A stretch of 64,000 nt of DNA, taken from the NCBI GenBank assembly GCA_965207455.1, contig CBDBMJ010000003.1, forward strand, positions 54,197-118,196, read 5' to 3'. How positions within the stretch are numbered: the stretch's first letter is position 1; every line of letters begins with the position of its first letter. Made by a program: the position numbers and the translations under genes. The notes beneath the pieces were generated by a model. That model had not been told where the DNA came from. It made no database searches and saw only the letters and a list, made by a program, of their open reading frames with translations. Shown one piece after another: positions 4,247 through 45,960 of the stretch. This DNA is from Bdellovibrionota bacterium (lineage in GTDB: Bacteria; Bdellovibrionota; UBA1018; CAIPTA01; JAALKR01).

Positions 4247-5581
4247 ATGGACAAAATTTCCACAAGTCCTCTTTCAGGATTTCGAGACTTTCTACCTCAG
4301 GAAAGTGCTGCTCGCGCTTGGGCACTGGATACTATTGCAAAGGCCTATGGTGCTTATGGCTTTCAGCCCATCATAACTCCCAGTTGTGAGCGTTTGGCGA
4401 CCCTTCAGGGAAAGGGTGCTGGTCAGGAGAATGAGCATCTTATTTTTAAATTACAAAAGCGGGGGAGGTCGTTGGAAAAGGCTTTTACCCAGGCGACGCC
4501 TGAAAATTTAGACACTCTCAGCGACATGGGCTTGCGCTTTGATCTCACGCTCTTACTAGCGCGCTATTATGCCCATTTTCAGCTTCCTCAGCCCTTCAAG
4601 GTGTTTCAGTGCGGGCCTGTTTGGCGTGCCGAGCGTCCACAAAAGGGAAGGTATAGGGAGTTTTTTCAATGCGACGTGGATGTTCTCGGAAGCGCCTCCA
4701 TAGGAGCAGAGGTGGATTGTTTGCAAGCGATTGCTCTGGCCATGCACCAGATGGGTATTGGCAAGGTGGAATTTCATCTCAATGATCGACGTCTTTTGGA
4801 TGCCTTGGGCACAAATCTGGGTATTCCTCCTGATCAGTGGACGGGTGTACTGGTAACAATGGATAAGTTGGACAAGATAGGAATCGACGGTGTGACCCAG
4901 GAGTTGGGGAAAAAAATACCGAAGCCAGAAAAAATTATTAGCGCCTTTACTGGTCGCAAGACTTTAAGGGAATGGAGTGAAATTGCCCCCACAGCGGTTG
5001 ACAGTCTTGGGGAGATTTTTGCCTGCTTGGAGCCGACTCTAACTGAAAAGGATCAGTCCCTTCACTTTTCTCCCACTCTGGTGCGTGGGCAGAATTATTA
5101 TACGGGAACGATTTTTGAAATTCGCAAGCCTTCCCTAGGTTACTCCCTTGGCGGTGGTGGGCGCTATGATCGACTGCTGGAGTTGTTTGACGTTCCTTCC
5201 ACACCGGCGTTTGGCGGCAGTATTGGTTTTGAGAGGATAATCCCCCTTTTGTTGGAGAGCAAAGACAAACCTTTCGTGCTTCCCACGCCCCAAGTTTTCT
5301 TTCCTCTCTTTTCCTCAGGCCTCTATGGAAAGGTGAACGATTTGGCAGAAAAATTGCGCAAAAAGGATATAAGCGTAGATGTATTTCCCGATGCCGTGAA
5401 GCTCAAGCGACAGTTTCGGTATGCAGAGGCACGGGATATTCCCTATGTGGCTAGTATTGGTGAGAGTGAGTTAGACCAGGGGACAGTTACATGTAAGAAT
5501 ATGAAGACAGGCAAGGAAGAAACAATGGATGAAAGTGCATTTATTATAGAAATGGAAAAAAAATGTCGAAACAACCGTTAG
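4247..5581 (+). CDS. hisS: Histidine--tRNA ligase
   Basis: N-terminal GFRDFLPQE motif and class II motif VWRAERPQKGRYREFFQCD; 444 aa. Confidence 0.9.
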   Translation: MDKISTSPLSGFRDFLPQESAARAWALDTIAKAYGAYGFQPIITPSCERLATLQGKGAGQENEHLIFKLQKRGRSLEKAFTQATPENLDTLSDMGLRFDLTLLLARYYAHFQLPQPFKVFQCGPVWRAERPQKGRYREFFQCDVDVLGSASIGAEVDCLQAIALAMHQMGIGKVEFHLNDRRLLDALGTNLGIPPDQWTGVLVTMDKLDKIGIDGVTQELGKKIPKPEKIISAFTGRKTLREWSEIAPTAVDSLGEIFACLEPTLTEKDQSLHFSPTLVRGQNYYTGTIFEIRKPSLGYSLGGGGRYDRLLELFDVPSTPAFGGSIGFERIIPLLLESKDKPFVLPTPQVFFPLFSSGLYGKVNDLAEKLRKKDISVDVFPDAVKLKRQFRYAEARDIPYVASIGESELDQGTVTCKNMKTGKEETMDESAFIIEMEKKCRNNR

Positions 5582-7365
5582 TATACCGAACCCATACCTG
5601 TGGAGAGCTTTCTTTAGATCAAAACAAAGAAAAAGTGATCCTTAGTGGGTGGGTGGATACCCAACGAAACCATGGTGGGCTGATATTTATCGACCTTAGG
5701 GATCGTTACGGTATTACCCAATTGGTCTTTGATCCGGATCAGGGAAAAGAGTTGATGGATCAGGCCGGCAGGGTTCGTAGTGAGTATGTATTGCGAGTGG
5801 TGGGGATGGTACGCAATCGACCTGAAAATATGGTGAATACAAAGATTTCCACGGGTTCGGTGGAAGTGCTTGCTCAGGAGATCACTGTGCTGTCTGCGGC
5901 AAAAACGCCTCCTTTTGTTATTGAGGATAAGGCAAATGTTAGTGAGGATATTCGTTTGGAGTTTCGGTATTTGGATCTTCGTCGTCCATTTCTACAAAAG
6001 ATTCTTCAACTCAAGCACCGTTTTGTCCAGGGTATGCGTAACTACCTTACGGAAAAAGATTTCCTAGAGATAGACACTCCTATTTTATTTAAAAGCACTC
6101 CTGAAGGGGCAAGGGATTATTTGGTGCCGTCCAGGAATTCACAGGGATCTTTTTATGCCCTACCACAGTCTCCCCAGACCCTAAAGCAGCTTCTGATGAT
6201 CGGTGGGTTGGATCGTTATTTTCAATTTGCCCATTGTTTTCGAGATGAAGATTTGCGTTCGGACCGTCAGCCGGAGTTTGTCCAGTTGGATTTAGAAATG
6301 TCCTTTGTCAATGAGGAGTCCATCTATGCCTTAGTGGAGGGATTGATGACAGCAGCCTATAAGGAGGCTTCCAATAGTAAGCTCACCCCACCGTTTCCAC
6401 GGCTGACGTATAAAACTGCCATGGAGAAATATGGGAATGACAAGCCAGACACTCGTTTTGACTTATTGTTAGAGAACGCCAGTGCTGTGTTTGAAAAGAC
6501 AGCATTCAAGGCATTCTCTTCGGTGTTAGGGGCTGGTGGTAGTATTAAGGGTTTATGTGTAAAGGCTGGCACCGATCTTTCCCGCAAGAATATTGACAAT
6601 CTCACTTCTCTTGTGGCTCGATTTGGAGCCAAGGGTTTAGCTTGGCTAAAAGTAGAGGAGTCTTTAGTTTCTCCCATTGCAAAGTTTCTATCCTCGCAGG
6701 AGCAAAGTGCTTTAGTGAAATGTATGAAAGCAGAAAAAGGGGATTTAATTCTTTTAGTGGCAGACATTGATCCTGAGGTAGTGGATGCATCTTTGGGTAA
6801 CCTACGGGTCCATCTGGGGAAAGAGCGAAATCTAATTAAGGACAATTGTTTTAACTTTCTTTGGGTCACTGACTTTCCTCTTTTTGAATACGACTCTGAA
6901 ACAAAAACCTATTCAGCCAAGCACCACCCTTTCACTCAGCCCCATCCCGACGATATAGAGTTATTGAAAAATCAAAAAAATATGGGGGAGATACGTTCCG
7001 TGGCCTATGATCTTGTTTGTAATGGTCATGAAATTGCTGGTGGTAGTTTGCGTATTTACCAATCGGATGTGCAGGAGGCCATGTTCCGAGCCTTGAATGT
7101 AACGAAAAAAGAAGTGGAAGAAAAATTTGGTTTTTTCATACGTGCCCTACAGTACGGAACTCCTCCCCATGGCGGTATTGCCTTTGGTCTTGACCGAAAT
7201 ATCATGTTATTGACGGGAGTGAAATCCATTCGAGATGTTATTGCCTTTCCCAAGACTCAGACGGGAGCTTGTTTGATGAGTTCTTGTCCCGACCCGGTAA
7301 CAGATAAACAACTGCGAGAATTATCTATTCGGGTGAGTAAAGAGGATCGTCCCACCCCAAAATAA
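5563..7365 (+). CDS. aspS: Aspartate--tRNA ligase
   Basis: 600 aa. N-terminal OB-fold RTHTCGELSLDQNKEKVILSGWVDTQRNHGGLIFIDLRDRYGITQ and class II core FRDEDLRSDRQPEF. Overlaps hisS by 19 nt. Confidence 0.9.
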   Translation: MSKQPLVYRTHTCGELSLDQNKEKVILSGWVDTQRNHGGLIFIDLRDRYGITQLVFDPDQGKELMDQAGRVRSEYVLRVVGMVRNRPENMVNTKISTGSVEVLAQEITVLSAAKTPPFVIEDKANVSEDIRLEFRYLDLRRPFLQKILQLKHRFVQGMRNYLTEKDFLEIDTPILFKSTPEGARDYLVPSRNSQGSFYALPQSPQTLKQLLMIGGLDRYFQFAHCFRDEDLRSDRQPEFVQLDLEMSFVNEESIYALVEGLMTAAYKEASNSKLTPPFPRLTYKTAMEKYGNDKPDTRFDLLLENASAVFEKTAFKAFSSVLGAGGSIKGLCVKAGTDLSRKNIDNLTSLVARFGAKGLAWLKVEESLVSPIAKFLSSQEQSALVKCMKAEKGDLILLVADIDPEVVDASLGNLRVHLGKERNLIKDNCFNFLWVTDFPLFEYDSETKTYSAKHHPFTQPHPDDIELLKNQKNMGEIRSVAYDLVCNGHEIAGGSLRIYQSDVQEAMFRALNVTKKEVEEKFGFFIRALQYGTPPHGGIAFGLDRNIMLLTGVKSIRDVIAFPKTQTGACLMSSCPDPVTDKQLRELSIRVSKEDRPTPK

Positions 7366-8185
7366 TATTATCAATAAGACGGGTTTCGCCCAGAAAAGCA
7401 GCCAGGGCATACACAGCCTTTCCTTTTGTTTCTAGGGGCTTGAGATCGGGATAGGAAAGAATTTCCAGGTATTGGATACGAAAACTTTTTTCTGTTTGGA
7501 TTTGCTCCCTGCCCTGTTGGATAATTTCATCCACAGAGTGCTCTCCCTGTGTATAGAGCTTTGCTCCCTCCCTTAGGGTTTTGTATAAAAGAGGTGCTTT
7601 TTTTCTATCTTCGGAGGAAAGGTATTGGTTCCTAGAACTCAGTGCGAGTCCGTCGGACTCCCTCACTGTGGGACAAAACTGTAATTTCACGGGCAACAGA
7701 AGGTCCTTCACCATGCGTTCAATAACGAGGCATTGCTGAATATCTTTTTTTCCAAAGTAGGCGCAGGTGGGTTGGACGAGGGCAAAAAGACGGGCAACAA
7801 CGGTGGCCACTCCCTGGAAGTAGGTACTACGAAACTTACCACACAAGGGAGCTGAGACTCCCTCCACTTGAATATAAGAAGAAAAACCAGGGGGATAGAT
7901 AAGGGATCTATGGGGGCAAAAAAGTATGGTTAGGTTTTTTTCCCGTAAGCGATTTTTATCTTCCTCCAATGTTCTGGGGTAGACAGAAAAATCTTCGTTT
8001 TCTCCAAATTGTGTGGGGTTTACATAGATGGAAACCACGGTGCACTTGTTTTCTTTTATGGAGGCATCTACCAAAGATTCATGCCCAGGGTGGAGCGCGC
8101 CCATGGTGGGCACAAAACCAATGCTCCCTTGGCGATAGGGTTTAAGGGCATGGTTTAATTCTTCGAGAGTGGTAACGATCTTCAC
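7325..8185 (-). CDS. panC: Pantoate--beta-alanine ligase
   Basis: PTMGALHPGHESLV HIGH-like motif; 286 aa. Confidence 0.9.
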   Translation of the reverse strand: MKIVTTLEELNHALKPYRQGSIGFVPTMGALHPGHESLVDASIKENKCTVVSIYVNPTQFGENEDFSVYPRTLEEDKNRLREKNLTILFCPHRSLIYPPGFSSYIQVEGVSAPLCGKFRSTYFQGVATVVARLFALVQPTCAYFGKKDIQQCLVIERMVKDLLLPVKLQFCPTVRESDGLALSSRNQYLSSEDRKKAPLLYKTLREGAKLYTQGEHSVDEIIQQGREQIQTEKSFRIQYLEILSYPDLKPLETKGKAVYALAAFLGETRLIDNIILGWDDPLYSPE

Positions 8186-9402
8186 TAGCTACTCCAGCGA
8201 GTGTGGGCAATATCCAGTAGCCTTTGAGCAATTTCTTCCTTGGAGGCTTTCGGTAAAAACGTATGGGAAGCATTATTTTCAAAAACATATAGCTCGTTGG
8301 TATCCACATCAAAGCCAATGTCGCTTCTACTCACGTCGTTTAAAGCAATAAAATCCAAGCCCTTTGTTTTTAATTTATCCTGTGCTTTTTCCATTTGCTC
8401 TTTTTTTGTACCCACTTCTGCGGCAAATCCCATAAACACTTGCCCCGGCTTTCGCTTAGCTGTCAAAGAGGAAAGAATATCTTTTGCAGAATTAAGTTCC
8501 AGATTTAATGTTTCCTTGCGTGGAATTTTTCCTTTCTTTTCATCTTTCATTAAAAAATCGCAGACGGCGGCTGTGCTAAAAATTATATTGGCTTTGGGAA
8601 GGGCGCTAAGGGCTTGGGCTTCCATTTCATCGTTGGTTTCCACTTGAAATGTTTTTCCTTGCTCAAGCTTGGTATAGGCGGAATCTACTGGTCCGGATAT
8701 TAAGGTAACATGGGCACCCTGTTTTTCTGCTGCCCTAGCAATCATATAACCCATGCGACCACTGGATCGGTTTGTGAGAAAACGAACCGGGTCCAAATAA
8801 GTACGAGTGGGACCACTGGTAACTAAAACATGTACTCCCTTTAGGGGTTGTGATTCTAATTTCTCCGCAACCTTTTGGTATATCTCCATGGGTTCTGCCA
8901 TTTTACCCATACCCGTTTCCCCACAAGCTAAGTCTCCACTCACGGGTCCAATTTCTTCAACCTTGCGTGCCCGTAGTTTTTTTCTATTCTCTTGAGTAAT
9001 GGGTGCTTCCCACATGCGCACATTCATGGCAGGAGCCATAAAAATAGGTTTCGTGAATGCTAGGGCTTCGGTGAGAAGAGCATCGTCGCAAATTCCATGG
9101 GCGAGCTTTGCCATAAAATTTGCTGTGGCAGGAGCCACCACTAGGGCATCTCCCCATTCACAAAGGTCGATATGGGCAGTGGCAGACAGATCGTAACTCT
9201 GTTGGTCGCCTAGAGAACGAAGCACAGGATTATTGCTCAAGCTCTCCAACGTTAGTGGAGTAACAAATTGCTCTCCCTGCTTGGTTAGTATCACACGCAC
9301 ATTGGATCCATTTTTTACAAACAAGCGCACAAGCTCACAGGATTTATAGGCAGCAATTCCTCCCGTTATTCCTAAAATAATATTTTTATTAAGCAATGGC
9401 AT
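8185..9402 (-). CDS. coaBC: Bifunctional phosphopantothenoylcysteine decarboxylase/synthetase
   Basis: N-terminal flavoprotein ILGITGGIAAYKS and C-terminal DFP ligase domain; 405 aa. Confidence 0.9.
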   Translation of the reverse strand: MPLLNKNIILGITGGIAAYKSCELVRLFVKNGSNVRVILTKQGEQFVTPLTLESLSNNPVLRSLGDQQSYDLSATAHIDLCEWGDALVVAPATANFMAKLAHGICDDALLTEALAFTKPIFMAPAMNVRMWEAPITQENRKKLRARKVEEIGPVSGDLACGETGMGKMAEPMEIYQKVAEKLESQPLKGVHVLVTSGPTRTYLDPVRFLTNRSSGRMGYMIARAAEKQGAHVTLISGPVDSAYTKLEQGKTFQVETNDEMEAQALSALPKANIIFSTAAVCDFLMKDEKKGKIPRKETLNLELNSAKDILSSLTAKRKPGQVFMGFAAEVGTKKEQMEKAQDKLKTKGLDFIALNDVSRSDIGFDVDTNELYVFENNASHTFLPKASKEEIAQRLLDIAHTRWSS

Positions 9403-10165
9403 ACAAACCCTCTAACGTTAGGTTGGGTTCAAAGTGGGTAACGGACTGAGATGTTCCCTCTAACAGATACCCAAATCCACCTGTGGCAATCACGGGGCAA
9501 TCCTGGGGAAAGTTCTTTTCTTTACGAATAGCTTCCACCATACCGTCTACCATAAAAGCAAACCCATGAATGGCTCCACTACTCATGGCAGTTTTCGTAT
9601 CATGGCCCACAACGGGAAGTTCTCCCGACGATGGAGTGAGGGCAATGGGTCCAAGGAGTGCGGTTTTTTGTACCAAAGCGTTCATGGAAATTCCCACACC
9701 TGGGCTAATAATACCTCCCATATATGCAAAGCAATTTTCATTTTTCCCAATAATGTCGAAGGTAGTAGCCGTGCCTGCGTCCACAACAATTGCTGGTGCT
9801 CCAAAACGCAAAGCTCCCTGAGCATTGGCCATTCGATCAGCACCCAAGATAGCAGGGTTGGGTAATTGTATTTCAAAGGACCATGGACTGCTTTCTTTGG
9901 CTATCACTAGGGGAATACTCAGTTCATGGAACAGTTGGCTCCAAGTGGACTCCAGCGCTGGAACCACGGAAGCAAGGACTGCTTTTTCAAGCTGCTTCTC
10001 TAGAGAGTGTTTCCTACGGGAAAGGTTTGTTTCCAAGTAGGTGAAAAGCTCATCAGCATAGGCATGGCGATTGCTTTGTATGTGGAAAGTATGAAGCTTT
10101 CCATCGGACTCGAATAAGCCAAATGTTGTGCGTGAGTTGCCGATGTCAATAATGAGTTTAGCCAT
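9389..10165 (-). CDS. coaX: Type III pantothenate kinase
   Basis: MAKLIIDIGNSRTTFGLF start, ASKHA fold; 258 aa. Confidence 0.85.
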   Translation of the reverse strand: MAKLIIDIGNSRTTFGLFESDGKLHTFHIQSNRHAYADELFTYLETNLSRRKHSLEKQLEKAVLASVVPALESTWSQLFHELSIPLVIAKESSPWSFEIQLPNPAILGADRMANAQGALRFGAPAIVVDAGTATTFDIIGKNENCFAYMGGIISPGVGISMNALVQKTALLGPIALTPSSGELPVVGHDTKTAMSSGAIHGFAFMVDGMVEAIRKEKNFPQDCPVIATGGFGYLLEGTSQSVTHFEPNLTLEGLYAIA

Positions 10166-10770
10166 TATTTTTTACCTCTATTTTCATTTCTACTTTCATA
10201 TTTGGCTTCATTTTTCTTGCTATTCTTTTTTTTCTTTTCAACTTTGACTTCGGGCTTGGGTTTTGGTTTCTTATCTGGATAGTTAATTTTGTAGATAACG
10301 GGAACGCCCAGTACTTTATTTCTTATGGGTAGGAGTACAACGCTAATGCCTTGATTTATTTTTTTTAAAGAGGGGGGGGAGCTCTTTTTTCGAAGTATGG
10401 ATCTTACCATGGGTTTAAGCTCTGTGGGCCAATGGGCCACGAATTTCTTCTCAGAGAGATTTACCCAAAATTTAACATTATATTCTTTTTTATTGACATA
10501 GACTTGTCCCTCTATGCTGGATTTTTTTACGGTGGGGAACTTTTTATTATTGTCAAGTAAGAAAACACTCATTCCACTTCCTCTAATGAGTAACTCGGTT
10601 AGGAAGGTGCCTGCGGATCGAAGTTGACCACCCCTGGGGCCTACGTTTCTCCCTTTACTTTTTTGGGTATTGGAGGCTTTGGAGGTTTTTTGAGCCAACG
10701 ATGGGGGAGCTATGAGGAGAATCGCCAAGGAAAGGAACAGAAGAGAACTTTTTTTAATTTGTTTTTTCAT
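10165..10770 (-). CDS. Secreted lysine-rich hypothetical protein embedded in the pan/coa operon
   Basis: Signal peptide MKKQIKKSSLLFLSLAILLIAPPSLA; KPKPKPEVKVEKKKK tail; no family recognised. Contains a G8 tract. Confidence 0.45.
   Translation of the reverse strand: MKKQIKKSSLLFLSLAILLIAPPSLAQKTSKASNTQKSKGRNVGPRGGQLRSAGTFLTELLIRGSGMSVFLLDNNKKFPTVKKSSIEGQVYVNKKEYNVKFWVNLSEKKFVAHWPTELKPMVRSILRKKSSPPSLKKINQGISVVLLPIRNKVLGVPVIYKINYPDKKPKPKPEVKVEKKKKNSKKNEAKYESRNENRGKK
10372..10379. repeat. Homopolymeric G8 tract (C8 on coding strand, encodes SPPS) inside secreted-protein gene
   Basis: Read directly: agggggggga. Confidence 0.8.
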
Positions 10771-10771
10771 C

Positions 10772-11572
10772 CTATCCCTTGACTTGTTTTACATAATCCG
10801 AGGCAGCTCCACTGACTATTTTTTTCAAATTGCAGTAGGGCGTAGCAAACTTTGGCGTGGGACCAAAGGTATAGCCTAAGATATCATTTACCACGAGCAC
10901 CTCTCCATCACAAACAGTTCCTGCTCCGATCCCAATGGTCGGAATTTTTAATTCTTGGGTAATTTGTTCCGCTGCTGTGGGATGTAGGCACTCCAGTACC
11001 AAAGAAAAACATCCAGCTTTTTCTAAAGCTAGGGCTGATTGCACCAAGAGGTCCACATCTTTTTCCGTTTTTCCGTGGATATAAAACCCTCCCATTTGGT
11101 GTATGGACTGAGGAGTGAGACCAATGTGACCCATCACTGGGATCCCTGTCTCCACACAGCGACGGGTGAGTTCTAGAATATGGGGGGAGGCGCCCTCCAT
11201 TTTTACGGCCTGTACTCCACCCTCGCCCAAACAACGACCACTACTGATCAGACCCGTCTCCACAGAACTTTGATAGCTCATAAAAGGAAGGTCTGCGATA
11301 ACAAACGCTCGCTCACTTCCTCGAACCACGGCTGCTGAGTGTTCTATAATAGTATCCAAACGAACCTGAAGGGTATTTTCTTGACCGTAGACCACGTTGC
11401 CGATGGAGTCGCCCACGAGGAGAATATCCACACCTGCATCGTCTAGGCATTGGGCTGTCATCACATCGTAGGCTGTTAGGGCAGCTAGGCGTTCCTTGCC
11501 CTTCATGGCTTGGAGGGAGTGGAGTGTGTGTCGTTTTGTTTTGTTTTGTACGCTACTCATATTTTGTTCCAT
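10772..11572 (-). CDS. panB: 3-methyl-2-oxobutanoate hydroxymethyltransferase
   Basis: LAALTAYDVMTAQCLDDAGVDILLVGDSIGNVVYG core; 266 aa. Confidence 0.9.
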   Translation of the reverse strand: MEQNMSSVQNKTKRHTLHSLQAMKGKERLAALTAYDVMTAQCLDDAGVDILLVGDSIGNVVYGQENTLQVRLDTIIEHSAAVVRGSERAFVIADLPFMSYQSSVETGLISSGRCLGEGGVQAVKMEGASPHILELTRRCVETGIPVMGHIGLTPQSIHQMGGFYIHGKTEKDVDLLVQSALALEKAGCFSLVLECLHPTAAEQITQELKIPTIGIGAGTVCDGEVLVVNDILGYTFGPTPKFATPYCNLKKIVSGAASDYVKQVKG

Positions 11573-12479
11573 TGGTAGTTGGGTTCCTATAGCGTTCCGT
11601 TCCTTTCTTGCTAATCGGTGATCCCGATTCTATTTCTTTAGAAAACTCTTGGGCAAAAACTCCAGACTCAATATCTTCCCAAAGTTTTTCCATTCGGGGT
11701 TGAAGTTCCTTTTGGGGAAGTAAATATTCTGAAGCTCGTATGCCGCCGAACCTAGCGGTGCTACTTACTTTTTCTAACATTCCAGCCACACCCCATTCTA
11801 CCATCATATCCACGATGAGTTTGGTTTCATGCAAGCACTCATAGGTGGCTAGTGTCGGATTGATTCCTTTTTTCACAAGGTGGCGTATGCTGGCATCCAG
11901 TAGGTGGGGGATTCCCCCGCATAATAGGATTTGTTCGCTGAAAAGATCGGCGTTGGTTTCCTCGGAAAAGGTGCTTTCCAGCAAGCCCACTCGATGGCAG
12001 CCCAGTCCTGTGGCAATTGCGCGGGCAAGTTCCCAAGAATTACCCGAGGCATCCTGAGATACAGCAAGCACGCCCATCACTCCTGAACCAGCCACATAGT
12101 TTTCTCGGAGTTTTTTACCGATACCTTTCGGGGCAACGAGAATGGAGTTGTCTTGGGGAGAGAGGGGAAGTTTCCCGTACGTTACGGCAAAGCCGTGGGC
12201 AAAAACAAAGGTTCGGGGTGAGCCATCTTTGCAGTGGGTTTGGAAAAAAAGTGGAATCTTTTCATCTGGAATTAAAATGGCTATGGGGTGGAGCGCTCGA
12301 TTTTCCAGTGCCTCCTCTAGGGAGCAGGTGGCAAAGCCATCTTTTTGAGCTCGCTCAATGGAGGTTCCCTTGTTTAATGCATTGCGCCCAGAGACAGTCA
12401 CGTCCCATCCTGAGTCTTTTAGGTTTTTTGCCCATGCTTGCCCTTGATTTCCGTAGCCAATAAGTGTAATTTGTGCCAT
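11553..12479 (-). CDS. Ketol-acid reductoisomerase (IlvC)-like NADPH reductase, in the operon position of ketopantoate reductase
   Basis: IGYGNQGQAWAKNLKDSG Rossmann motif; AHGF...APKG...GLLESTFSEETNADLFSEQILLCGG...YECLHETKLIVD matches the KARI knotted domain. 308 aa, slightly shorter than class I KARI. Confidence 0.7.
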   Translation of the reverse strand: MAQITLIGYGNQGQAWAKNLKDSGWDVTVSGRNALNKGTSIERAQKDGFATCSLEEALENRALHPIAILIPDEKIPLFFQTHCKDGSPRTFVFAHGFAVTYGKLPLSPQDNSILVAPKGIGKKLRENYVAGSGVMGVLAVSQDASGNSWELARAIATGLGCHRVGLLESTFSEETNADLFSEQILLCGGIPHLLDASIRHLVKKGINPTLATYECLHETKLIVDMMVEWGVAGMLEKVSSTARFGGIRASEYLLPQKELQPRMEKLWEDIESGVFAQEFSKEIESGSPISKKGTERYRNPTTNGTKYE

Positions 12480-12505
12480 GTGACTAATTACTAGCAGGAT
12501 TTTCC

Positions 12506-12913
12506 ATGTTACTCAACTTTATGAAAGCAAAAATTCACCGACTTCGGGTTACTCAAGCCAATCATGAGTATGAGGGGAGTGTGACCATTGATGAGCTCCT
12601 GATGAAGGAGGCAGGCATATTGCCTTATGAGCAGGTGCAGGTCTATGACGTGACCTCTGGGAGTCGTTTTGTGACGTATGCGATGGAGGGCCCTCCTGGA
12701 AAAGGGGATTGCTGTGTGAATGGAGCAGCCGCACGTTTGGTGGCTCTAGGGGATGAGGTAATTATCATGAGTTATTGCTTATTAACCCAAGAGGAGGCTT
12801 TGGATTACCAGCCCAAGGTGGTGCTTATGAATAAAGACAATTCTATTAAAGACAGTTTTACGGTTCGAGGGGGACATAAGGAAGTGGGCGCACCGTTGGT
12901 GGAAAGAAAGTAA
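12506..12913 (+). CDS. panD: Aspartate 1-decarboxylase (pyruvoyl-dependent)
   Basis: MLLNFMKAKIHRLRVTQANHEYEGSVTID with the G-S self-cleavage site; 135 aa. Confidence 0.9.
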   Translation: MLLNFMKAKIHRLRVTQANHEYEGSVTIDELLMKEAGILPYEQVQVYDVTSGSRFVTYAMEGPPGKGDCCVNGAAARLVALGDEVIIMSYCLLTQEEALDYQPKVVLMNKDNSIKDSFTVRGGHKEVGAPLVERK

Positions 12914-12917
12914 GCCT

Positions 12918-14039
12918 ATGGAGTGGGTGGTATTTCTTGTTCTTGCTGCTCTAACTGTTCTAGTAGCTGCTCTTGTATTTATTTTTCGTTCTAACAGTAG
13001 GGATAGGGATTTAGCCCTGATCGCGCTTCAGCAAAACATGATGAAGCAAATGCAAGAGGATGGTGTGAGTTTGCGAAAAGAGTTTAGCCAGTCTTTGCAC
13101 GAGTCCATGCAAAATATTTCCACAGTGCTGGGTGGGGTGAGTACTCAGCTCAATAAGCGTATGGAGGAGACAAACACTACTTTGGGTCGCACTCAAAATA
13201 ATGTGGGAGATCGGCTCGACAATGCGGCCAAAGTTATCCACAACCTACAAAATCAATTGGGAACTTTGGAGGAGTCCAGCCGACGTATGTTGGATATAGG
13301 TCAGGGGCTTAAAAATTTAGAGAATGTGTTGAGAAATCCAAAAATTCGAGGAAACATGGGCGAGTTTTTTCTAGAGGATCTTCTCAGACAAGTTTTGCCC
13401 ACGGGTAGCTACGGCATACAACATTCCTTTCGATCAGGTGTTACCGTAGATGCTGTGGTGTATGTGGGTGATAATCTGCTACCCATCGACTCCAAGTTTC
13501 CTGTGGAGAGTTTTGTGCGTTTTTTGACTATTCCCGATGATGAACCCGACAAAAAGAAAAAAGAATACCGGGCTTTTATTGCCACCATCAAACACCACGC
13601 CAATGACATTGCTAAAAAATATATTTGTCCCGATGAAAACACCTTTGATTTTGCTTTTATGTATATTCCTGCGGAGAATGTATACTACGAGACTATTATT
13701 CGTAACGACGGTACAATCAATTCAGACTCCCTATACTCCTGGTTACTACAAAAGAAAGTAATTCCCGTATCTCCTAACTCTCTATATGCTTACCTGCAAG
13801 TAATACTGTTGGGTTTAAAGGGCATGAAGATTCAAGAAAGTGCAAAAGAGATTCTCCAGGGCTTAGACCAGCTCTCCGGCGATCTCCGCCGCTTCCAAAG
13901 CGACTACTCCGTATTGGGAAAGCACATAAAAAATGCAGGCAATACTTTCGAGGGTGGAAATAAATATTTGGAAAAATTTCAAGGTCGTTATGACCAGCTT
14001 CTACAAACGAAGGAGTATCGTGGAATTACCAAAGAATAA
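12918..14039 (+). CDS. rmuC: DNA recombination protein RmuC
   Basis: N-terminal TM and coiled-coil; NMGEFFLEDLLRQVLP and PIDSKFP motifs of the RmuC family. Confidence 0.8.
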   Translation: MEWVVFLVLAALTVLVAALVFIFRSNSRDRDLALIALQQNMMKQMQEDGVSLRKEFSQSLHESMQNISTVLGGVSTQLNKRMEETNTTLGRTQNNVGDRLDNAAKVIHNLQNQLGTLEESSRRMLDIGQGLKNLENVLRNPKIRGNMGEFFLEDLLRQVLPTGSYGIQHSFRSGVTVDAVVYVGDNLLPIDSKFPVESFVRFLTIPDDEPDKKKKEYRAFIATIKHHANDIAKKYICPDENTFDFAFMYIPAENVYYETIIRNDGTINSDSLYSWLLQKKVIPVSPNSLYAYLQVILLGLKGMKIQESAKEILQGLDQLSGDLRRFQSDYSVLGKHIKNAGNTFEGGNKYLEKFQGRYDQLLQTKEYRGITKE

Positions 14040-14082
14040 ATCCTCCATACGTTCCTGGTCCTACTTTATTCTCTACTGTGTG

Positions 14083-14391
14083 ATGATTGTGTTTTTCACT
14101 CATAAGAAACCACTGGATCCCAGTTCCTACCCTTTTCCAAAGTATGGGGAATTGGTCCATTGTGTGGAATACTTTTTCTTTGCCATACTATTGCAGAAAG
14201 CCCTGCTTCGCAGTGAGGTGCCCAGGAGTTTTTGGTATGCCTTTGGGGGCACGTCCATCTTTGCTGTGGGAAACGCCCTGTATCTCTCCTTTTTCTCCAA
14301 CGGTGGCGCTTGGAGCACTACGGATTATATGGCCGTTGGGCTGGGAATAGGGCTTGCCATGTTTCTCTTAAATAGTATTTATCGCACCTAG
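14083..14391 (+). CDS. Small integral membrane protein (possibly VanZ-like)
   Basis: ORF 13933..14391 overlaps rmuC by 100 nt; internal ATG at 14083 avoids the overlap. Three predicted TM helices. Family assignment weak. Confidence 0.3.
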   Translation: MIVFFTHKKPLDPSSYPFPKYGELVHCVEYFFFAILLQKALLRSEVPRSFWYAFGGTSIFAVGNALYLSFFSNGGAWSTTDYMAVGLGIGLAMFLLNSIYRT

Positions 14392-14597
14392 GGTCCCAGG
14401 TCCGTGAGCATTTCCACCCCACCCACATCCGTTAGGTACACATGACCCGCGGGGCACACATGCTGTTCCACTTTTCTGGAAACATCATCGGGACGAATCC
14501 CACGAATCACAGGTATTGAGGAAAAATTGGTCTTACAGATGGGACAATCCAATGCTCGTTCCAAGGGATGCTTGGGTAGGGAATGTGCTTTTGTCAT
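14388..14597 (-). CDS. Small zinc-ribbon-like hypothetical protein (CPICK...CPAGH)
   Basis: 69-aa ORF with CxxC...C...H spacing; downstream of the paralog pair on the same strand. Confidence 0.35.
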   Translation of the reverse strand: MTKAHSLPKHPLERALDCPICKTNFSSIPVIRGIRPDDVSRKVEQHVCPAGHVYLTDVGGVEMLTDLGP

Positions 14598-16449: not shown

Positions 16450-17553
16450 TTATGTGTTTGGTTGAAGAGTGAGTACTTCTGCTTCTATCCAGGAGCCTGC
16501 CCCTGTTTGGGTTATGAGTCGGGGGTTGTGGAGTTGAAACATGGTGGGTTCTTCGGCAAAGGCAAGAGGGTATTCCGTTATGGTCACTAGGGCTTTGGTG
16601 AGTTTATAGGAAGGAGGCAAAAATCCTCCGATGGTGTCCACCAATCGGGACTGCACACAACGCTTCCAAAGGGCAGGGCCTCTGTGAATAGCTGTTAAAT
16701 AAAATCCAAAATTTCGCAGTTGACGAAGAATGGGTGCTACATCCATATAATTCTCTTTGATTGGGATTTGAACCACATGTATGCCAGCATTGATCATTTG
16801 CTTGCGCTTTTCTTCTTGGGCGGGAGCGTCCCCGATAAATACAATGGTTTTTTCCTCTCTATTTTGCACCAAGTGGGATTCCATCGGTATGGCCCCAAAG
16901 GGGTCCAGCACACATACCCAGTCTTGGAGGGAAACAATACTATCTTCCCGATAGGCTGCTTCCACGTCGAAAAGAAGAATGTCGTAGAAAAATGGAGTGC
17001 TCTTATTGTGCACACTCACCCGTACTATCTTTTTCTCATCGTCTATCTTTAAATCCCAAATTAGTTTTATTTGTGGGAGAAAGCGGTTGATGGATTTTTT
17101 GTAATCTTCATACAAGAGTTGGCAAAGGTGAGCTTCCTCTCCGTCGGCAATAATTACCTCTAAACCGTATTGCTCTAAACTTTGTATACCCTTGCCGCTA
17201 ATACTTTGTGTGGGATGGAGAGTACCAATTAACACTCTGGGAATGCCCATGTTTCGTATGCTTTCCGTTACTGGAGGAATGCGCTGGTAGGTGGGGTTGG
17301 GCTCCAAACTTAAGTATAGGGAAAGCTCCTCTGGCCTGGAGTGATCGTCGATGGTGTTCCACGCTTGGACCACACCATCTTCCTTGTCGCCCGGTTGAAA
17401 AACCGCTTTAGCCAGCACAGTACTTCCTCTGGCAATAATTGCGGACCAGGTGCTCTCCAAGGGTTGACCTATTTTTACTGGCGGTCGTCGACCCTCCAAA
17501 ACCAACTTATGGGTTTGGAGTAACATCTTTCTATCTAAATTCTCAAAGGTCAT
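16450..17553 (-). CDS. RibD-family (deaminase-like + RibD_C reductase-like) protein with degenerate deaminase active site
   Basis: N-half aligns to the CDA fold (…YLSLEPNPTYQRIPPVTESIRNMGIPRVLIG… versus …YVTLEPCxHxGRTPPCADALIEAGVARVVVA…) but lacks the HAE/PCxxC zinc ligands. C-half matches RibD_C topology. Confidence 0.45.
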   Translation of the reverse strand: MTFENLDRKMLLQTHKLVLEGRRPPVKIGQPLESTWSAIIARGSTVLAKAVFQPGDKEDGVVQAWNTIDDHSRPEELSLYLSLEPNPTYQRIPPVTESIRNMGIPRVLIGTLHPTQSISGKGIQSLEQYGLEVIIADGEEAHLCQLLYEDYKKSINRFLPQIKLIWDLKIDDEKKIVRVSVHNKSTPFFYDILLFDVEAAYREDSIVSLQDWVCVLDPFGAIPMESHLVQNREEKTIVFIGDAPAQEEKRKQMINAGIHVVQIPIKENYMDVAPILRQLRNFGFYLTAIHRGPALWKRCVQSRLVDTIGGFLPPSYKLTKALVTITEYPLAFAEEPTMFQLHNPRLITQTGAGSWIEAEVLTLQPNT

Positions 17554-17572: not shown

Positions 17573-18637
17573 TTAAGCAGGCTCTTCCACAAGAGCGCGC
17601 ATTTCCTGTTCCACATGGTATGTCTGTGGTTGGGTGGCATCCTCTAAAATCGGAGATATGCCAACTCCCGGAATATGCTTTCCTGCAATCATGCGAGGGC
17701 GCACTTGAAGAGAATAAAAAAGTTCGTCACATACCCTGCGAATAAGATGCTCAGAAAAATTGCACACCTCAGTGTCCTCGTTGATACAAATAAAGCGCCC
17801 TGTTTTTTTTACGGATTTGCGAATCGACTCCCAGTCGTAGGGATAAATAGTTCGTAGATCAATAACCTCGTAATGAATACCCTCTTGAGCCAATTTTTTT
17901 GCTATCCCCTCCACTATGGGCATGAGCCTTCCCCAAGCCACCACTGTGGCCCTGTCTCCCTCTTGGCAGGTTCGTGCCTTACCAATGGAAATATTGGGAT
18001 CCGAAAGCCCTTGGGGCCAACGGGGCTTCCAATTCATTTTCTTTTTTTCGTTCACAGGCATATCGATCATGTCGCGAAGTTGCTTTTCATCATCAGGCTC
18101 ACCCGGTATTTTCTTCTCCCCCTTACTCCGCAAAAGCGCCTTGGGCTTTAAGTACATAACAGGGTTGGGATCTTTAATGGCCGCTAACATTAAGCCGTAA
18201 GCATCGTAAGCGTTGGAGGGCATAACCGTCTTCCAACCAGGGATCTGTACCATTTTAGAATCAAAGGAATGGGAATGATAAATAGAACCGTGAATACCAC
18301 TTCCAACGGGAGTCATCACCACAATGGGGCAAGTATAGTCGCCATTACTGGCCCAACAAGCATTGCCCGCAAGTTTTAATAGGTCGATGGTATTAAAAAT
18401 ATAATCACAGAACTGAATTTCTGCCACACAACGGCTTCCTGCATAGCCCAGACCAGTGGCCATGCCAATCACACCTCGCTCGTCCAAAGGACTGTTCCAA
18501 CTTGTCTCCAACCCTTGGGTGGCTGTAAATACTCCACCTAGTGGAGGACCCACGTCTTCCCCAAAAACGTCCTTTAAATCCAAGTTTTTTTCTCCGTACG
18601 CCAACGCCATTCGGATTGCCTGTGCAATAGTCGCCAT
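17573..18637 (-). CDS. 2-oxoacid dehydrogenase E1 component beta subunit (transketolase-like)
   Basis: GEDVG...GGVF...RVIDTP-like N-terminus and AEIQF, LRTIYPYD motifs. About 35-aa Lys-rich insertion relative to typical E1-beta. Confidence 0.8.
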   Translation of the reverse strand: MATIAQAIRMALAYGEKNLDLKDVFGEDVGPPLGGVFTATQGLETSWNSPLDERGVIGMATGLGYAGSRCVAEIQFCDYIFNTIDLLKLAGNACWASNGDYTCPIVVMTPVGSGIHGSIYHSHSFDSKMVQIPGWKTVMPSNAYDAYGLMLAAIKDPNPVMYLKPKALLRSKGEKKIPGEPDDEKQLRDMIDMPVNEKKKMNWKPRWPQGLSDPNISIGKARTCQEGDRATVVAWGRLMPIVEGIAKKLAQEGIHYEVIDLRTIYPYDWESIRKSVKKTGRFICINEDTEVCNFSEHLIRRVCDELFYSLQVRPRMIAGKHIPGVGISPILEDATQPQTYHVEQEMRALVEEPA

Positions 18638-18640
18638 AAA

Positions 18641-19735
18641 TTAACCCCTTCGTTTATTCTTCCATTGCTCTTTGGCAAGTTTTATAAAGTCCACACCAAT
18701 GGACTCAGCTAAGGTGTCCCTACCTCGATCATTATTCTCTTGAGCATAGACATGATCGAAAATACTCTCAGGTGTGGGATGCGTTTCTTGTCGTACTTTT
18801 TTCCAACTCTCACTAATTTCCTTCGTCCATTTTTCCCAAACCTTTTTCGCGTCCTGAGAGGAAAGTATGCTCTGCTTTTTTAATTCCTTTTCAAACCCCT
18901 CAATAGGACAAGGGTCTGTGGTTCGGTTAGCACCACTAGCAGACGAATGACCATAAAGACGACTCACACAAAACTCCAAAAGATAGGGCTTGCGCTCCTT
19001 GCGCACATATTCCATGGCCTGGCTTAAAGCACCCCAAGCCTCCCATACATTGTTTCCGTCGACAGTGAGGGAAGGAATTCCAAAGGCTTTTCCCCGGTCG
19101 GAAATTTTTCTCTCTCCGTGTTGACCGTCGTAAGTGGTGGAAATACCCCAACGGTTATTATTCACAATTATAAGTAGAGGCAAAGGAGCCGCTGGTCGAC
19201 TCGCCCAAATAAGAGCACTGGCAAAATCACCCTCAGCTGTGCCCGCATCTCCCCCATTGGCAATGGTAATACCCCTACTTCCCCTCTGAGCATGAGCCGT
19301 TCCAATAGCCTGGGTATATTGGGGCTCAATACAAGAAGAGATGGGAGGAATATTCCACTCCCGCTTGCTATAATGATTTACAAAGTTTCGACCCCCAGAA
19401 TAGGGATCCGTGGAAACACAGGCCATTTGGCGAATAGTGTCTGCTGGGTCCGCTCCCATTGCCATTAAAATACCGCTGGATCGATAGTGCAGATGAAGGA
19501 AATCATGATCCAGACCAGAACCCTTATCGAGTAAAAGCCCAAGGGGAATGGAACTTGCCTCTTCTCCCGGCCCCCCAATCCAAAAAAATCCCTCGCCTGA
19601 TTTCCCCATAAGAATGATGCGCTCTTCCAATACCCTGGTCTTTACCATGAGGCTGTGAATTTGTAGCAAGGTTTTTGGGGGTATGGCTGACTGAACTGAT
19701 CGCACAGCCGCTGGAGAAAGTACTTTTCTGGTCAT
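18641..19735 (-). CDS. 2-oxoacid dehydrogenase E1 component alpha subunit (TPP-binding)
   Basis: TPP motif GDAGTAEGDFASALIWAS...IIVNNNRWGIST; 364 aa. Confidence 0.8.
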   Translation of the reverse strand: MTRKVLSPAAVRSVQSAIPPKTLLQIHSLMVKTRVLEERIILMGKSGEGFFWIGGPGEEASSIPLGLLLDKGSGLDHDFLHLHYRSSGILMAMGADPADTIRQMACVSTDPYSGGRNFVNHYSKREWNIPPISSCIEPQYTQAIGTAHAQRGSRGITIANGGDAGTAEGDFASALIWASRPAAPLPLLIIVNNNRWGISTTYDGQHGERKISDRGKAFGIPSLTVDGNNVWEAWGALSQAMEYVRKERKPYLLEFCVSRLYGHSSASGANRTTDPCPIEGFEKELKKQSILSSQDAKKVWEKWTKEISESWKKVRQETHPTPESIFDHVYAQENNDRGRDTLAESIGVDFIKLAKEQWKNKRRG

Positions 19736-20796: not shown

Positions 20797-20806
20797 GATT
20801 ATTAAG
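20760..20806. repeat. Imperfect ~45-bp direct repeat, left copy (covers last 12 codons of ldcA)
   Basis: aaaactggagttattgg[agcaggtg]gtagggctctaggattatta versus 22216..22256 aaaactggagttattgg[g]ggtaggactctaggattatta. Confidence 0.75.
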
Positions 20807-21431
20807 AGACCCAAAATTTCTGTAATTCATCAATAAAGCTCTGGTAAGCCTCTTCAAAGCTAGGTGCTTCTTTGATTCCTGAAACAGCACTTGACCAACC
20901 GATCTTCAGAAGGCTCAAATCTATGGTTTTTAAATGCTGGATAAGATCTTTAGGAATAACTGTTTCTCGATAATTGAAACAAGCTTCAAGAGAACGAAAT
21001 AAATTGTTTTTTTCAGCTCTTGGAAGAAAGTAGGATAAGTCAAATATATCCTTTGAGCGTGAATTGTACTTTCCAAGATCCACTAGTGCATGAATTTTTT
21101 CTGCAATCATTGTTTCTATAGGATAAACAAACCAAGTCAGTTCATTTTCTCCAATCAGCTCTGGTGTTTTAATTTGAAGAGGAGAAGGAACAATAGGATC
21201 ACCAATTCCTAGGTCAAATTGAATAATCTGGAACTTTTTTATATTTTTAGGTATCTCGCCAATCCCAGCACGAAATACTTGTCGAACTCCACCATACTCG
21301 CCCTGAGTTTTAAGATCTATTTCTTTTTCAAACCTAAACCAAACAGCATCATTAAAAGTTTTTTCTACGACTACCTTAACAGCATCAAGATCAATTGTAT
21401 ACCTGCTGGATTTATAAATACGTAGTCCCAC
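20802..21431 (-). CDS. abiEii: AbiEii/DUF1814 nucleotidyltransferase toxin (type IV TA / abortive infection); N-terminus ambiguous
   Basis: IETMIAEKIHALVDLGKYNSRSKDIFDL matches the AbiEii signature. First canonical start is GTG at 21431, but the in-frame upstream 33 codons encode ...LVFKGGYVGL (the conserved GG nucleotide-binding motif) with no ATG/GTG/TTG; in-frame stop at 21531. Confidence 0.6.
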   Translation of the reverse strand: MGLRIYKSSRYTIDLDAVKVVVEKTFNDAVWFRFEKEIDLKTQGEYGGVRQVFRAGIGEIPKNIKKFQIIQFDLGIGDPIVPSPLQIKTPELIGENELTWFVYPIETMIAEKIHALVDLGKYNSRSKDIFDLSYFLPRAEKNNLFRSLEACFNYRETVIPKDLIQHLKTIDLSLLKIGWSSAVSGIKEAPSFEEAYQSFIDELQKFWVS

Positions 21432-26354: not shown

Positions 26355-26355
26355 G

Positions 26356-29064: not shown

Positions 29065-29135
29065 CCCACTGACCTCCTTTTTGCCCTTTCTATAACTCTC
29101 CTTATAGGTAAGAAATATTAGCAAAGTGTGAGAAA

Positions 29136-30548: not shown

Positions 30549-30551
30549 AAT

Positions 30552-43907: not shown

Positions 43908-43911
43908 AATT

Positions 43912-45342: not shown

Positions 45343-45357
45343 CGCCCATCCCCCTAG

Positions 45358-45867: not shown

Positions 45868-45921
45868 GAATTTTCCTCCATCCTCCGTGATAGAGATACC
45901 GATTTTCTTCAGCCCCTTCAG

Positions 45922-45960
45922 TTTTGGCCCCTAGTTTTGGCCCCTAGCTTTAGCTCCTAG
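45922..45960. repeat. 13-bp tandem repeat (ttttggcccctag x2 + ctttagctcctag) in the flgM-flgN junction; third unit holds the flgM stop
   Basis: Read directly. Confidence 0.75.

What the first reader, a model, noticed from the sequence alone, without database searches (positions are those of the whole stretch)
11553..12479. KARI (IlvC)-like reductase occupies the ketopantoate-reductase slot of a complete pantothenate/CoA cluster
The cluster panC-coaBC-coaX-(secreted protein)-panB-X, with divergent panD, has no PanE/ApbA homologue. Instead X is a 308-aa protein with the KARI Rossmann motif (GYGNQGQAWAKNLKDSG) and the knotted C-domain. IlvC is known to reduce ketopantoate in some bacteria (for example Corynebacterium), so this is probably a dedicated IlvC paralog recruited as ketopantoate reductase. 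It is about 30 aa shorter than class I KARI.
Basis: partly seen in the sequence, partly recalled or inferred. Interest (0 to 1): 0.5.

Follow-up and report, generated by a model that had tools for sequence, protein, structure and literature searches.

The report
Truncated IlvC-like reductase heading a pantothenate operon
An uncultured Bdellovibrionota bacterium, and about a hundred relatives, start their vitamin B5/coenzyme A operon with a shortened, diverged copy of the branched-chain amino-acid enzyme IlvC, which most likely performs the ketopantoate reduction step usually done by PanE but is annotated everywhere as ordinary IlvC.

Summary
ORF 11553-12479(-) encodes a 308-aa protein with KARI_N and KARI_C domains. 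Its AlphaFold model superposes on class I KARI crystal structures, and all eight KARI active-site residues are present. It is the first gene of a tightly packed operon: KARI-like, panB, a small secreted ORF, coaX, coaBC, panC. panD is divergent, 26 bp away. No PanE/ApbA, PanG-type, ilv or leu gene lies anywhere in the 64 kb.

New evidence:
- The protein belongs to a clade of about 98 sequences from Bdellovibrionota, Bacteriovoracia and Oligoflexia MAGs.
- All 9 distinct proteins whose surroundings I could read (8 clade members including the window, plus outlier P0106) sit immediately upstream of panB. None has an ilv/leu neighbour.
- Of 77 canonical KARI control loci, 59 sit next to ilv/leu genes and none next to a pan or coa gene.
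- The clade lacks the 17-aa N-terminal leader and most of the C-terminal tail (median 295 vs 338 aa).
- It has replaced more than 40 residues that are at least 85% conserved in ilv-linked KARIs.

The best reading is an NADPH/Mg2+-dependent ketopantoate reductase derived from KARI. Two things are untested: whether it is a paralog alongside a canonical ilvC, and whether it has lost isomeroreductase activity. I rate it a new variant of a known kind, of moderate interest.

The parts
11553..12479 (-). KARI (IlvC)-like reductase, 308 aa. Candidate ketopantoate (2-dehydropantoate) reductase and first gene of the operon.
   Evidence: Pfam KARI_N and KARI_C. TIGR00465 above cutoff, NF004017 below cutoff. 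AF2 model pLDDT 94, TM 0.90 and rmsd 1.9 A to KARI 4TSK. Member of a 98-sequence clade linked to panB.
12441..12458 (-). Rossmann dinucleotide-binding motif G8-Y-G-N-Q-G13. The clade has N11 where ilv-linked KARIs have Ser, and W16 where they have His.
   Evidence: Translation; clade versus bona fide KARI comparison.
11934..11960 (-). Metal-ligand block E174-T-N-A-D178-L-F-S-E182. E174, D178 and E182 are conserved. G181 of canonical DLFGEQ is replaced by Ser.
   Evidence: Alignment signatures.
11826..11840 (-). Second metal-ligand pair E214-C-L-H-E218, conserved.
10772..11572 (-). panB, ketopantoate hydroxymethyltransferase. It makes the substrate of the reductase and overlaps the KARI-like gene by 20 nt.
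   Evidence: Pfam Pantoate_transf 5.9e-96; coordinates.
10165..10770 (-). 201-aa ORF with a signal peptide and a Lys-rich tail, inserted between panB and coaX. Function unknown.
   Evidence: No Pfam or NCBIfam hit. Translation. A 37%-identical homologue (E 1e-32) sits at the same position in L093. Absent from the other relatives' operons.
9389..10165 (-). coaX, type III pantothenate kinase.
   Evidence: Pfam Pan_kinase 1.1e-50.
8185..9402 (-). coaBC, phosphopantothenoylcysteine synthetase/decarboxylase.
   Evidence: Pfam Flavoprotein and DFP.
7325..8185 (-). panC, pantoate-beta-alanine ligase. It uses the product of the reductase and is the last gene of the operon.
   Evidence: Pfam Pantoate_ligase 6.8e-98.
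12480..12505 (.). 26-bp divergent intergenic region between the KARI-like gene and panD.
   Evidence: Sequence. The equivalent gaps are 42-55 bp in L003, L005 and L094.
12506..12913 (+). panD, aspartate 1-decarboxylase (beta-alanine supply), divergently transcribed.
   Evidence: Pfam Asp_decarbox 4.9e-47. Divergent panD is conserved in 6 of the 9 loci.

Best explanation
The gene encodes a KARI-fold oxidoreductase whose main cellular job is the ketopantoate (2-dehydropantoate) reductase step of pantothenate synthesis.

**Inferred mechanism.** PanB converts 2-ketoisovalerate to ketopantoate. The KARI-like enzyme binds ketopantoate through its two Mg2+ sites (E174, D178, E182, E214, E218). It transfers a hydride from NAD(P)H, probably NADPH, to C2, with K118 and H95 assisting. 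This is the reductase half-reaction of KARI, acting on an analogue of its 3-hydroxy-3-methyl-2-ketobutyrate intermediate. PanC then joins (R)-pantoate to beta-alanine made by PanD, and CoaX and CoaBC carry the product on towards CoA.

**Expression.** The gene is co-transcribed and translationally coupled with panB.

**Lineage.** It represents a distinct, shortened KARI lineage in uncultured Bdellovibrionota that evolves under constraints different from those on ilv-operon KARIs.

**Shown versus inferred.** Shown: fold, domains, catalytic residues, operon structure, clade-wide synteny and clade-specific sequence changes. Inferred: substrate, cofactor and loss (or not) of acetolactate isomeroreduction.
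For: 1. **Identity.** KARI_N and KARI_C domains. About 40-45% identity to solved class I KARIs. AF2 model pLDDT 94.1, with Foldseek TM 0.90 and rmsd 1.9 A to 4TSK. Catalytic octad H95, K118, E174, D178, E182, E214, E218, S239 intact in the window protein and in 97 of the 98 clade members.
2. **Operon.** Six genes with overlaps or gaps of at most 1 nt. The KARI-like gene is first and overlaps panB.
3. **Conserved synteny.** Eight further proteins, 40-59% identical to the window protein (seven clade members plus outlier P0106), sit directly upstream of panB-coaX-(coaBC)-panC: P0016, P0098, P0099, P0106, P0090, P0007, P0054, P0073. None of these loci has an ApbA/PanE Pfam hit or an ilv/leu gene within 8-10 kb or to the contig end (L008 has only about 1.5 kb upstream).
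4. **Control.** Of 77 canonical-signature KARI loci from metagenomes, 59 have ilvI/H, leuA, ilvD or similar nearby, and none has a pan or coa gene.
5. **Shifted constraints.** Compared with 52 KARIs that sit beside ilv/leu genes, the clade has a median length of 295 vs 338 aa, an N-leader of 2 vs 17 aa and a C-tail of 15 vs 43 aa. Residues 100% invariant in those KARIs are replaced: P120I, P135M, G181S, Y206I, Y212x, L225M, L267W, all present in the window protein.
6. **Precedent.** KARI reduces ketopantoate in Salmonella and E. coli. It is the only KPR in C. glutamicum, replaces PanE in Buchnera, and is a third KPR in B. subtilis (PMC4306246, PMC4353338, PMC11487621).
7. **Lineage biology.** The window's AspRS groups with Bdellovibrionota/Oligoflexia MAGs. 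Cultured members of the phylum lack Ile/Val synthesis (PMC3526173, PMC7529429), which would leave a KARI no branched-chain role.
Against: - No biochemical or genetic test exists.
- All eight KARI catalytic residues remain, so nothing in the sequence rules out normal acetolactate isomeroreduction.
- The protein still passes the TIGR00465 ilvC equivalog cutoff.
- The rest of the genome could not be searched, so an intact ilv pathway served by this same gene, or a panE elsewhere, is not excluded.
- The organism is only distantly related to cultured predators (AspRS at most 60% identical), so their auxotrophies may not apply. Peredibacter is reported to have more Val/Leu/Ile genes (PMC13147790).
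- NJ bootstrap for the 98-member clade is only 69/100, and deeper nodes are unresolved.
- The window protein keeps canonical F180, G189 and T241 where most of the clade has changed.
Confidence: 0.65

Rival explanations
1. It is simply the organism's one ordinary, bifunctional IlvC. It serves valine, leucine and isoleucine synthesis and moonlights as ketopantoate reductase, as in Corynebacterium glutamicum, and merely happens to lie in the pan operon.
For: The full catalytic octad is retained. It passes the TIGR00465 cutoff. Sole-IlvC KPR systems are documented (PMC4353338, PMC4306246). Genome-wide absence of ilv genes is untested.
Against: None of 77 canonical KARI loci is pan-linked, whereas 9 of 9 loci around the window protein and its relatives are. 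There are no ilv/leu genes in 64 kb here or around the eight relatives. More than 40 positions conserved in ilv-linked KARIs are replaced, seven of them 100% invariant there, and both termini are lost. It scores below the NF004017 cutoff. Related cultured lineages lack Val/Ile synthesis (PMC3526173).
Confidence: 0.2
2. It works upstream of PanB rather than downstream. As a true KARI, together with an acetolactate synthase and a dihydroxy-acid dehydratase encoded elsewhere, it makes 2-ketoisovalerate only to feed pantoate synthesis. Another enzyme reduces ketopantoate.
For: 2-ketoisovalerate is the PanB substrate and KARI lies on the route to it. The catalytic residues for isomeroreduction are all present.
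Against: No ilvB/N/D gene is found in any of the 9 operons or their flanks. This would leave the KPR step without a candidate in any of the clusters (no ApbA Pfam hits). Valine taken up from the environment plus a transaminase is a simpler source of ketoisovalerate.
Confidence: 0.08
3. It reduces some other 2-keto acid, for example 2-ketoisovalerate to 2-hydroxyisovalerate or a different hydroxy-keto acid, and its place in the operon reflects regulation rather than a pathway step.
For: KARIs are promiscuous towards 2-keto acids (PMC4353338, PMC11487621). The many clade-specific changes near the active site show that specificity has shifted in some direction.
Against: The strict position immediately upstream of panB, overlapping it, across 40-60% sequence divergence argues for a step in the same pathway. 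The only missing step in the operon is ketopantoate reduction.
Confidence: 0.05

Closest known systems
Class I ketol-acid reductoisomerase (IlvC, EC 1.1.1.86; TIGR00465 / PF07991 + PF01450), e.g. Alicyclobacillus 4TSK, S. aureus, P. aeruginosa 1NP3
   Same: Same two-domain fold (TM 0.90). Same eight active-site residues. Same Rossmann GxGxxG and DSG motifs. About 35-45% identity.
   Different: About 17 aa shorter at the N-terminus and about 20-28 aa shorter at the C-terminus. Residues invariant in ilv-linked KARIs are replaced (P120I, P135M, G181S, Y206I, Y212T, L225M, L267W). Never next to ilv/leu genes and always the first gene of a panB operon. Below the NF004017 equivalog cutoff.
IlvC acting as the physiological ketopantoate reductase (C. 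glutamicum, Merkamm 2003; Buchnera, PMC4306246; B. subtilis third KPR, PMC11487621)
   Same: A KARI-family enzyme is proposed to carry out EC 1.1.1.169 in place of PanE.
   Different: In those cases one full-length canonical IlvC in a branched-chain context moonlights. Here a separate, shortened and diverged lineage is built into the pan/coa operon itself, in a phylum whose cultured members lack Val/Ile synthesis.
PanE/ApbA ketopantoate reductase (PF02558 + PF08546) and PanG (Francisella type)
   Same: Predicted same reaction, same pathway position, and NADPH-dependent Rossmann N-domain with a helical C-domain of the 6PGDH-like superfamily.
   Different: No sequence match to either family. PanE is metal-independent and uses a Lys/Glu/Asn active site, whereas this protein keeps the KARI two-Mg2+ site.
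Streptomyces IlvC paralogues with diverging kinetics (PMC4353338)
   Same: A KARI duplicate or variant showing signs of functional divergence.
   Different: Those remain full length, with no pan linkage and no assigned new role.

Membership tests
Ketol-acid reductoisomerase, class I (structural/sequence family) | KARI_N (PF07991) plus a single KARI_C (PF01450) domain | tested here: met
   2e-39 and 4.9e-31. KARI_C covers profile positions 1-124 of 144.
Ketol-acid reductoisomerase, class I (structural/sequence family) | KARI three-dimensional fold | tested here: met
   AF2 pLDDT 94.1. Foldseek top 50 hits are all KARIs; best is 4TSK with TMq 0.90, rmsd 1.9 A.
Ketol-acid reductoisomerase, class I (structural/sequence family) | Eight conserved polar active-site residues (His, Lys, Glu, Asp, Glu, Glu, Glu, Ser) | tested here: met
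   H95, K118, E174, D178, E182, E214, E218, S239. The signature HKEDEEES is present in 97 of the 98 clade members.
IlvC equivalog (functional family, EC 1.1.1.86 in branched-chain synthesis) | Score above curated equivalog cutoffs | tested here: inconclusive
   TIGR00465 259.6 > 226.15. NF004017 278.7 < 336. NF009940 197.9 < 406.
IlvC equivalog (functional family, EC 1.1.1.86 in branched-chain synthesis) | Full-length class I architecture (about 330-340 aa, with N-terminal leader and C-terminal helix) | tested here: not met
   308 aa. The clade median is 295 vs 338 aa, with an N-leader of 2 vs 17 aa and a C-tail of 15 vs 43 aa.
IlvC equivalog (functional family, EC 1.1.1.86 in branched-chain synthesis) | Residues invariant in ilv-operon KARIs are kept | tested here: not met
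   More than 40 positions at least 85% conserved in 52 ilv-linked KARIs are replaced, including the 100%-invariant P120, P135, G181, Y206, Y212, L225 and L267.
IlvC equivalog (functional family, EC 1.1.1.86 in branched-chain synthesis) | Genomic association with ilv/leu genes | tested here: not met
   0 of 9 loci (window protein and eight relatives), against 59 of 77 canonical loci. The whole genome was not available.
IlvC equivalog (functional family, EC 1.1.1.86 in branched-chain synthesis) | Catalyses 2-acetolactate to 2,3-dihydroxyisovalerate | not testable with these tools
   Needs an enzyme assay or complementation of an ilvC mutant.
Ketopantoate reductase (function EC 1.1.1.169, any fold) | Co-operonic with panB/panC and filling the only missing pathway step | tested here: met
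   Window and 8 of 8 relatives.
Ketopantoate reductase (function EC 1.1.1.169, any fold) | NAD(P)H-dependent reduction of 2-dehydropantoate to (R)-pantoate | not testable with these tools
   Needs an assay or rescue of a panE ilvC mutant.
PanE/ApbA family (PF02558/PF08546) | Match to the ApbA and ApbA_C domains | tested here: not met
   No such Pfam hit for this protein or for any scanned window ORF. tblastn with E. coli PanE found nothing.

The most novel reading that the evidence does not exclude
The clade is a previously unrecognised class of dedicated ketopantoate reductase, derived from KARI, that has given up branched-chain amino-acid synthesis. The organisms would make pantoate from scavenged valine, so current 'ketol-acid reductoisomerase' annotations and the resulting predictions (branched-chain capacity, pantothenate auxotrophy) for these Bdellovibrionota would be wrong. 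A second KARI-like group has its catalytic Lys replaced by Thr and is linked to panC and an opine-dehydrogenase-like gene. Together with that group, this would mean the KARI fold has been recruited to pantothenate metabolism more than once.
Probability: 0.4. Interest if true: 0.6.

Novelty: new variant of a known kind. Interest (0 to 1): 0.45.

Why it matters
**What is known and what is new.** Ketopantoate reduction is the one step of pantothenate synthesis with several non-homologous or moonlighting solutions (PanE, PanG, IlvC). A KARI lineage that is built into the pan/coa operon and carries its own sequence signature would be a natural case of a promiscuous side activity becoming the main function.

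**Practical consequences.**
- Annotation pipelines name these proteins ketol-acid reductoisomerase, since TIGR00465 is passed. Metabolic reconstructions would therefore credit a branched-chain step and leave a gap at EC 1.1.1.169, producing false pantothenate-auxotrophy calls for uncultured Bdellovibrionota.
- The clade-specific substitutions around the active site (P120I, G181S, L267W and others) are testable specificity determinants for KARI engineering.

Tried and rejected
1. **Genome-contig scan.** A scan with the single protein returned only two archaeal KARIs.
2. **The look-up of encoding contigs for the window protein.** It found no record, so the window could not be extended.
3. **Metagenome-contig scan.** I reused these 80 loci as the control set.
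4. **Deeper phylogeny.** NJ with 100 bootstraps supports the 98-member clade only moderately (69). It gives no support for a wider N-truncated set of about 116, or for any sister relationship. Paralogy versus orthology with canonical IlvC is therefore unresolved, and no ML tool was available.
5. **Loss of catalytic residues.** I looked for losses that would prove the isomerase is gone. There are none, so this argument is not available.
6. **Literature.** No paper in the held library describes a truncated IlvC clade in pan operons. One search was too broad to be useful.
7. **Promoter/terminator scan of 7000-14500.** Matches were no more frequent than in shuffled sequence, so it is uninformative.
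8. **The 201-aa ORF.** I considered it a spurious ORF and rejected that, because a homologue occupies the same position in L093.
Full report
**1. What is in the sequence**

The minus-strand ORF 11553-12479 encodes 308 aa beginning MAQITLIGYGNQGQAWAKNLKDSG. It matches Pfam KARI_N (2e-39) and KARI_C (4.9e-31, profile positions 1-124 of 144). Among NCBIfam models it passes the TIGR00465 ilvC cutoff (259.6 vs 226.15). It fails NF004017 (278.7 vs 336), matching only profile positions 19-310 of 337.

Its best solved relatives are class I KARIs at about 40-45% identity over residues 3-290. An AlphaFold2 model built on a 35-sequence clade alignment is confident (pLDDT 94.1, pTM 0.90). It superposes on KARI crystal structures, the best being 4TSK (TMq 0.90, rmsd 1.9 A), and all top 50 hits are KARIs.

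The ORF cannot be extended. Only 26 nt separate its ATG from the divergent panD start, so the missing N-terminal leader is real.

**2. The operon**

Downstream on the same strand lie panB (10772-11572, overlapping the KARI-like gene by 20 nt), a 201-aa ORF with a signal peptide (10165-10770), coaX, coaBC and panC. Every junction is an overlap or a gap of at most 1 nt. panD (12506-12913) and rmuC are divergent.

I scanned every ORF of 230 aa or more in the 64 kb, plus eight shorter ones, against Pfam. I also ran tblastn with E. coli PanE, IlvI/H/D/E/A/M and LeuA-D. There is no ApbA/PanE, no PanG-type protein and no ilv or leu gene.

**3. Relatives and their neighbourhoods**

A search of 5.8 billion proteins found about 100 proteins at 45-60% identity, 280-320 aa long. 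Where named, they come from Bacteriovoracia, Bdellovibrionota or Oligoflexia MAGs, and all are annotated 'ketol-acid reductoisomerase'. Canonical 327-340-aa KARIs start at about 43% identity. The window's AspRS likewise has its nearest relatives (at most 60% identity) in uncultured Bdellovibrionota/Oligoflexia MAGs.

I read the surroundings of eight further proteins spanning 40-59% identity:
- P0016 (L003/L004)
- P0098 (L005)
- P0099 (L006)
- P0106 (L007)
- P0090 (L008)
- P0007 (L093)
- P0054 (gene table only)
- P0073 (L094)

In all of them the KARI-like gene lies immediately upstream of, and usually overlaps, panB-coaX-(coaBC)-panC. Counting the window, panD is divergent in six of the nine loci. 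None carries an ApbA-family gene or an ilv/leu gene within the 8-10 kb flanks or to the contig end (L008 has only about 1.5 kb upstream).

The metagenome scan returned 80 loci that are nearly all canonical KARIs, and I used them as a control. Of the 77 with the canonical active-site signature, 59 have ilvI/H, leuA, ilvD or leuB-D nearby, and none has panB, panC, coaX, coaBC or panD. The pan linkage is therefore a property of this lineage, not of KARIs in general.

**4. How the lineage differs from bona fide KARI**

In a MAFFT/NJ analysis of 235 KARI-like sequences, the window protein falls in a 98-member clade (bootstrap 69/100). Of these, 96 lack the N-terminal leader. Deeper nodes are unresolved.

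All eight KARI active-site residues (H95, K118, E174, D178, E182, E214, E218, S239) are retained. The Mg2+-dependent reductase chemistry should be intact, and isomerase loss cannot be read from the sequence.

Compared with 52 KARIs that actually sit beside ilv/leu genes, the clade differs in several ways:
- It is shorter: median 295 vs 338 aa, N-leader 2 vs 17 aa, C-tail 15 vs 43 aa.
- It has replaced more than 40 positions that are at least 85% conserved in those enzymes.
- These include residues that are 100% invariant there and lie in or next to active-site motifs: APKGPG to APKGIG (P120I), GVP to GVM (P135M), DLFGEQ to DL(L/F)SEQ (G181S), Y206I, Y212x, L225M and L267W.
- The window protein carries all of these but keeps canonical F180, G189 and T241, which most of the clade has changed.

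This is the pattern expected after a change of function or specificity.

**5. Interpretation**

KARI is known to reduce ketopantoate. It is the only KPR in C. glutamicum, replaces PanE in Buchnera, and is a third KPR in B. subtilis (PMC4353338, PMC4306246, PMC11487621). From my own knowledge, ketopantoate resembles the KARI reaction intermediate 3-hydroxy-3-methyl-2-ketobutyrate, so only the reductase half-reaction is needed.

Ketopantoate reduction is the only step missing from this otherwise complete operon. The gene occupies the position next to panB throughout a diverged lineage. I therefore judge the protein to be the pathway's ketopantoate reductase (confidence about 0.65).

Cultured Bdellovibrio and Halobacteriovorax lack Val/Ile synthesis (PMC3526173). 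The HD100 metabolic model predicts Leu/Ile/Val and pantothenate auxotrophy (PMC7529429). If the same holds here, the enzyme has no branched-chain role, and 2-ketoisovalerate would come from imported valine. The window organism is only distantly related to those strains, however.

Rivals:
- An ordinary bifunctional IlvC (0.2).
- A KARI that supplies ketoisovalerate upstream of PanB (0.08).
- Another keto-acid reductase (0.05).

**6. What could not be settled**

I could not test whether the genome has a second canonical ilvC, an ilv pathway or a panE elsewhere. 'Paralog' and 'dedicated' therefore remain hypotheses.

**7. Novelty**

No paper in the held library describes this lineage. The activity itself is well known, so I class this as a new variant of a known kind, of moderate interest (0.45). 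The main practical value is correcting annotation and metabolic reconstructions, and offering a natural specificity-shifted KARI.

**8. Side observation**

The nearest full-length neighbours in sequence space are P0102-P0119 and the KARI genes in loci L009, L010, L011, L095 and L096. They carry HTEDESES or HAEDESES in place of HKEDEEES, meaning the catalytic Lys is replaced by Thr or Ala and one Mg ligand Glu by Ser. In all five of those loci they sit divergent to an approximately 400-aa Octopine_DH-family gene. In four of the five, panC lies 0.1-3.6 kb downstream. None has panB or ilv/leu genes nearby. This may be a second, independent link between the KARI fold and pantothenate metabolism.

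Noticed in passing
L009 8001-8984; L010 4999-5994; L011 5951-6934; L095 10001-10984; L096 5240-6232 (proteins P0102-P0119): A second, full-length KARI-like group has the catalytic Lys replaced by Thr (Ala in P0114/L095) and one Mg-ligand Glu replaced by Ser (signature HTEDESES or HAEDESES). In 5 of 5 loci it sits divergent to an approximately 400-aa Octopine_DH-family gene. In 4 of 5, panC lies 0.1-3.6 kb downstream. None has panB or ilv/leu genes nearby. It may be another KARI-derived enzyme tied to pantothenate metabolism.
   Followed up: partly
L036 1197-2075: A KARI-like ORF with signature HVEDEEQS (Lys to Val, Glu to Gln). panC is convergent immediately downstream and there is no ilv neighbour on the 4.1-kb contig.
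   Followed up: no
window 10165-10770 (-): A 201-aa ORF with a signal peptide and a Lys-rich tail is wedged between panB and coaX. It has no family match. A 37%-identical homologue (E 1e-32) occupies the same slot in L093 (6290-6757) and is absent from the other relatives' operons. Function unknown.
   Followed up: partly
L003 8017-9558; L005 7987-9558; L094 5645-7204: In three relatives a 513-523-aa FAD_binding_4/FAD-oxidase_C protein (GlcD/D-lactate dehydrogenase-like) sits between panD and rmuC in the divergent operon. It is absent from the window. It may be a D-2-hydroxyacid dehydrogenase linked to the pathway.
   Followed up: no
window 12918-14039 (+): rmuC follows panD here and in six relatives (L003, L004, L005, L093, L094 and the P0054 locus). 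It is a conserved neighbour with no obvious link to CoA synthesis.
   Followed up: no
window 17573-19735 (-): 2-oxoacid dehydrogenase E1 beta (Transket_pyr/Transketolase_C) and E1 alpha (E1_dh) genes. The next ORF (16450-17553, 367 aa) has no Pfam match, so no recognisable E2 is adjacent.
   Followed up: no
window 20802-21431 (-) and 23093-24382 (-): Toxin-type genes: an AbiEii nucleotidyltransferase toxin domain and a HipA_C kinase domain.
   Followed up: no
window 7325-7365: The convergent genes aspS (5563-7365, +) and panC (7325-8185, -) overlap by 41 nt at their 3' ends, as called from the maximal ORFs.
   Followed up: no
window 25590-31268 (-) and 42987-51432 (-): Ordinary context. The first stretch holds a phosphate-type ABC transporter (PBP_like_2, two permeases, an ATPase) with a PhoR/PhoB-like two-component pair. 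The second holds a flagellar cluster (flagellin, FlgK, FlgI, FlgH, FlgA, FlgG/F).
   Followed up: no
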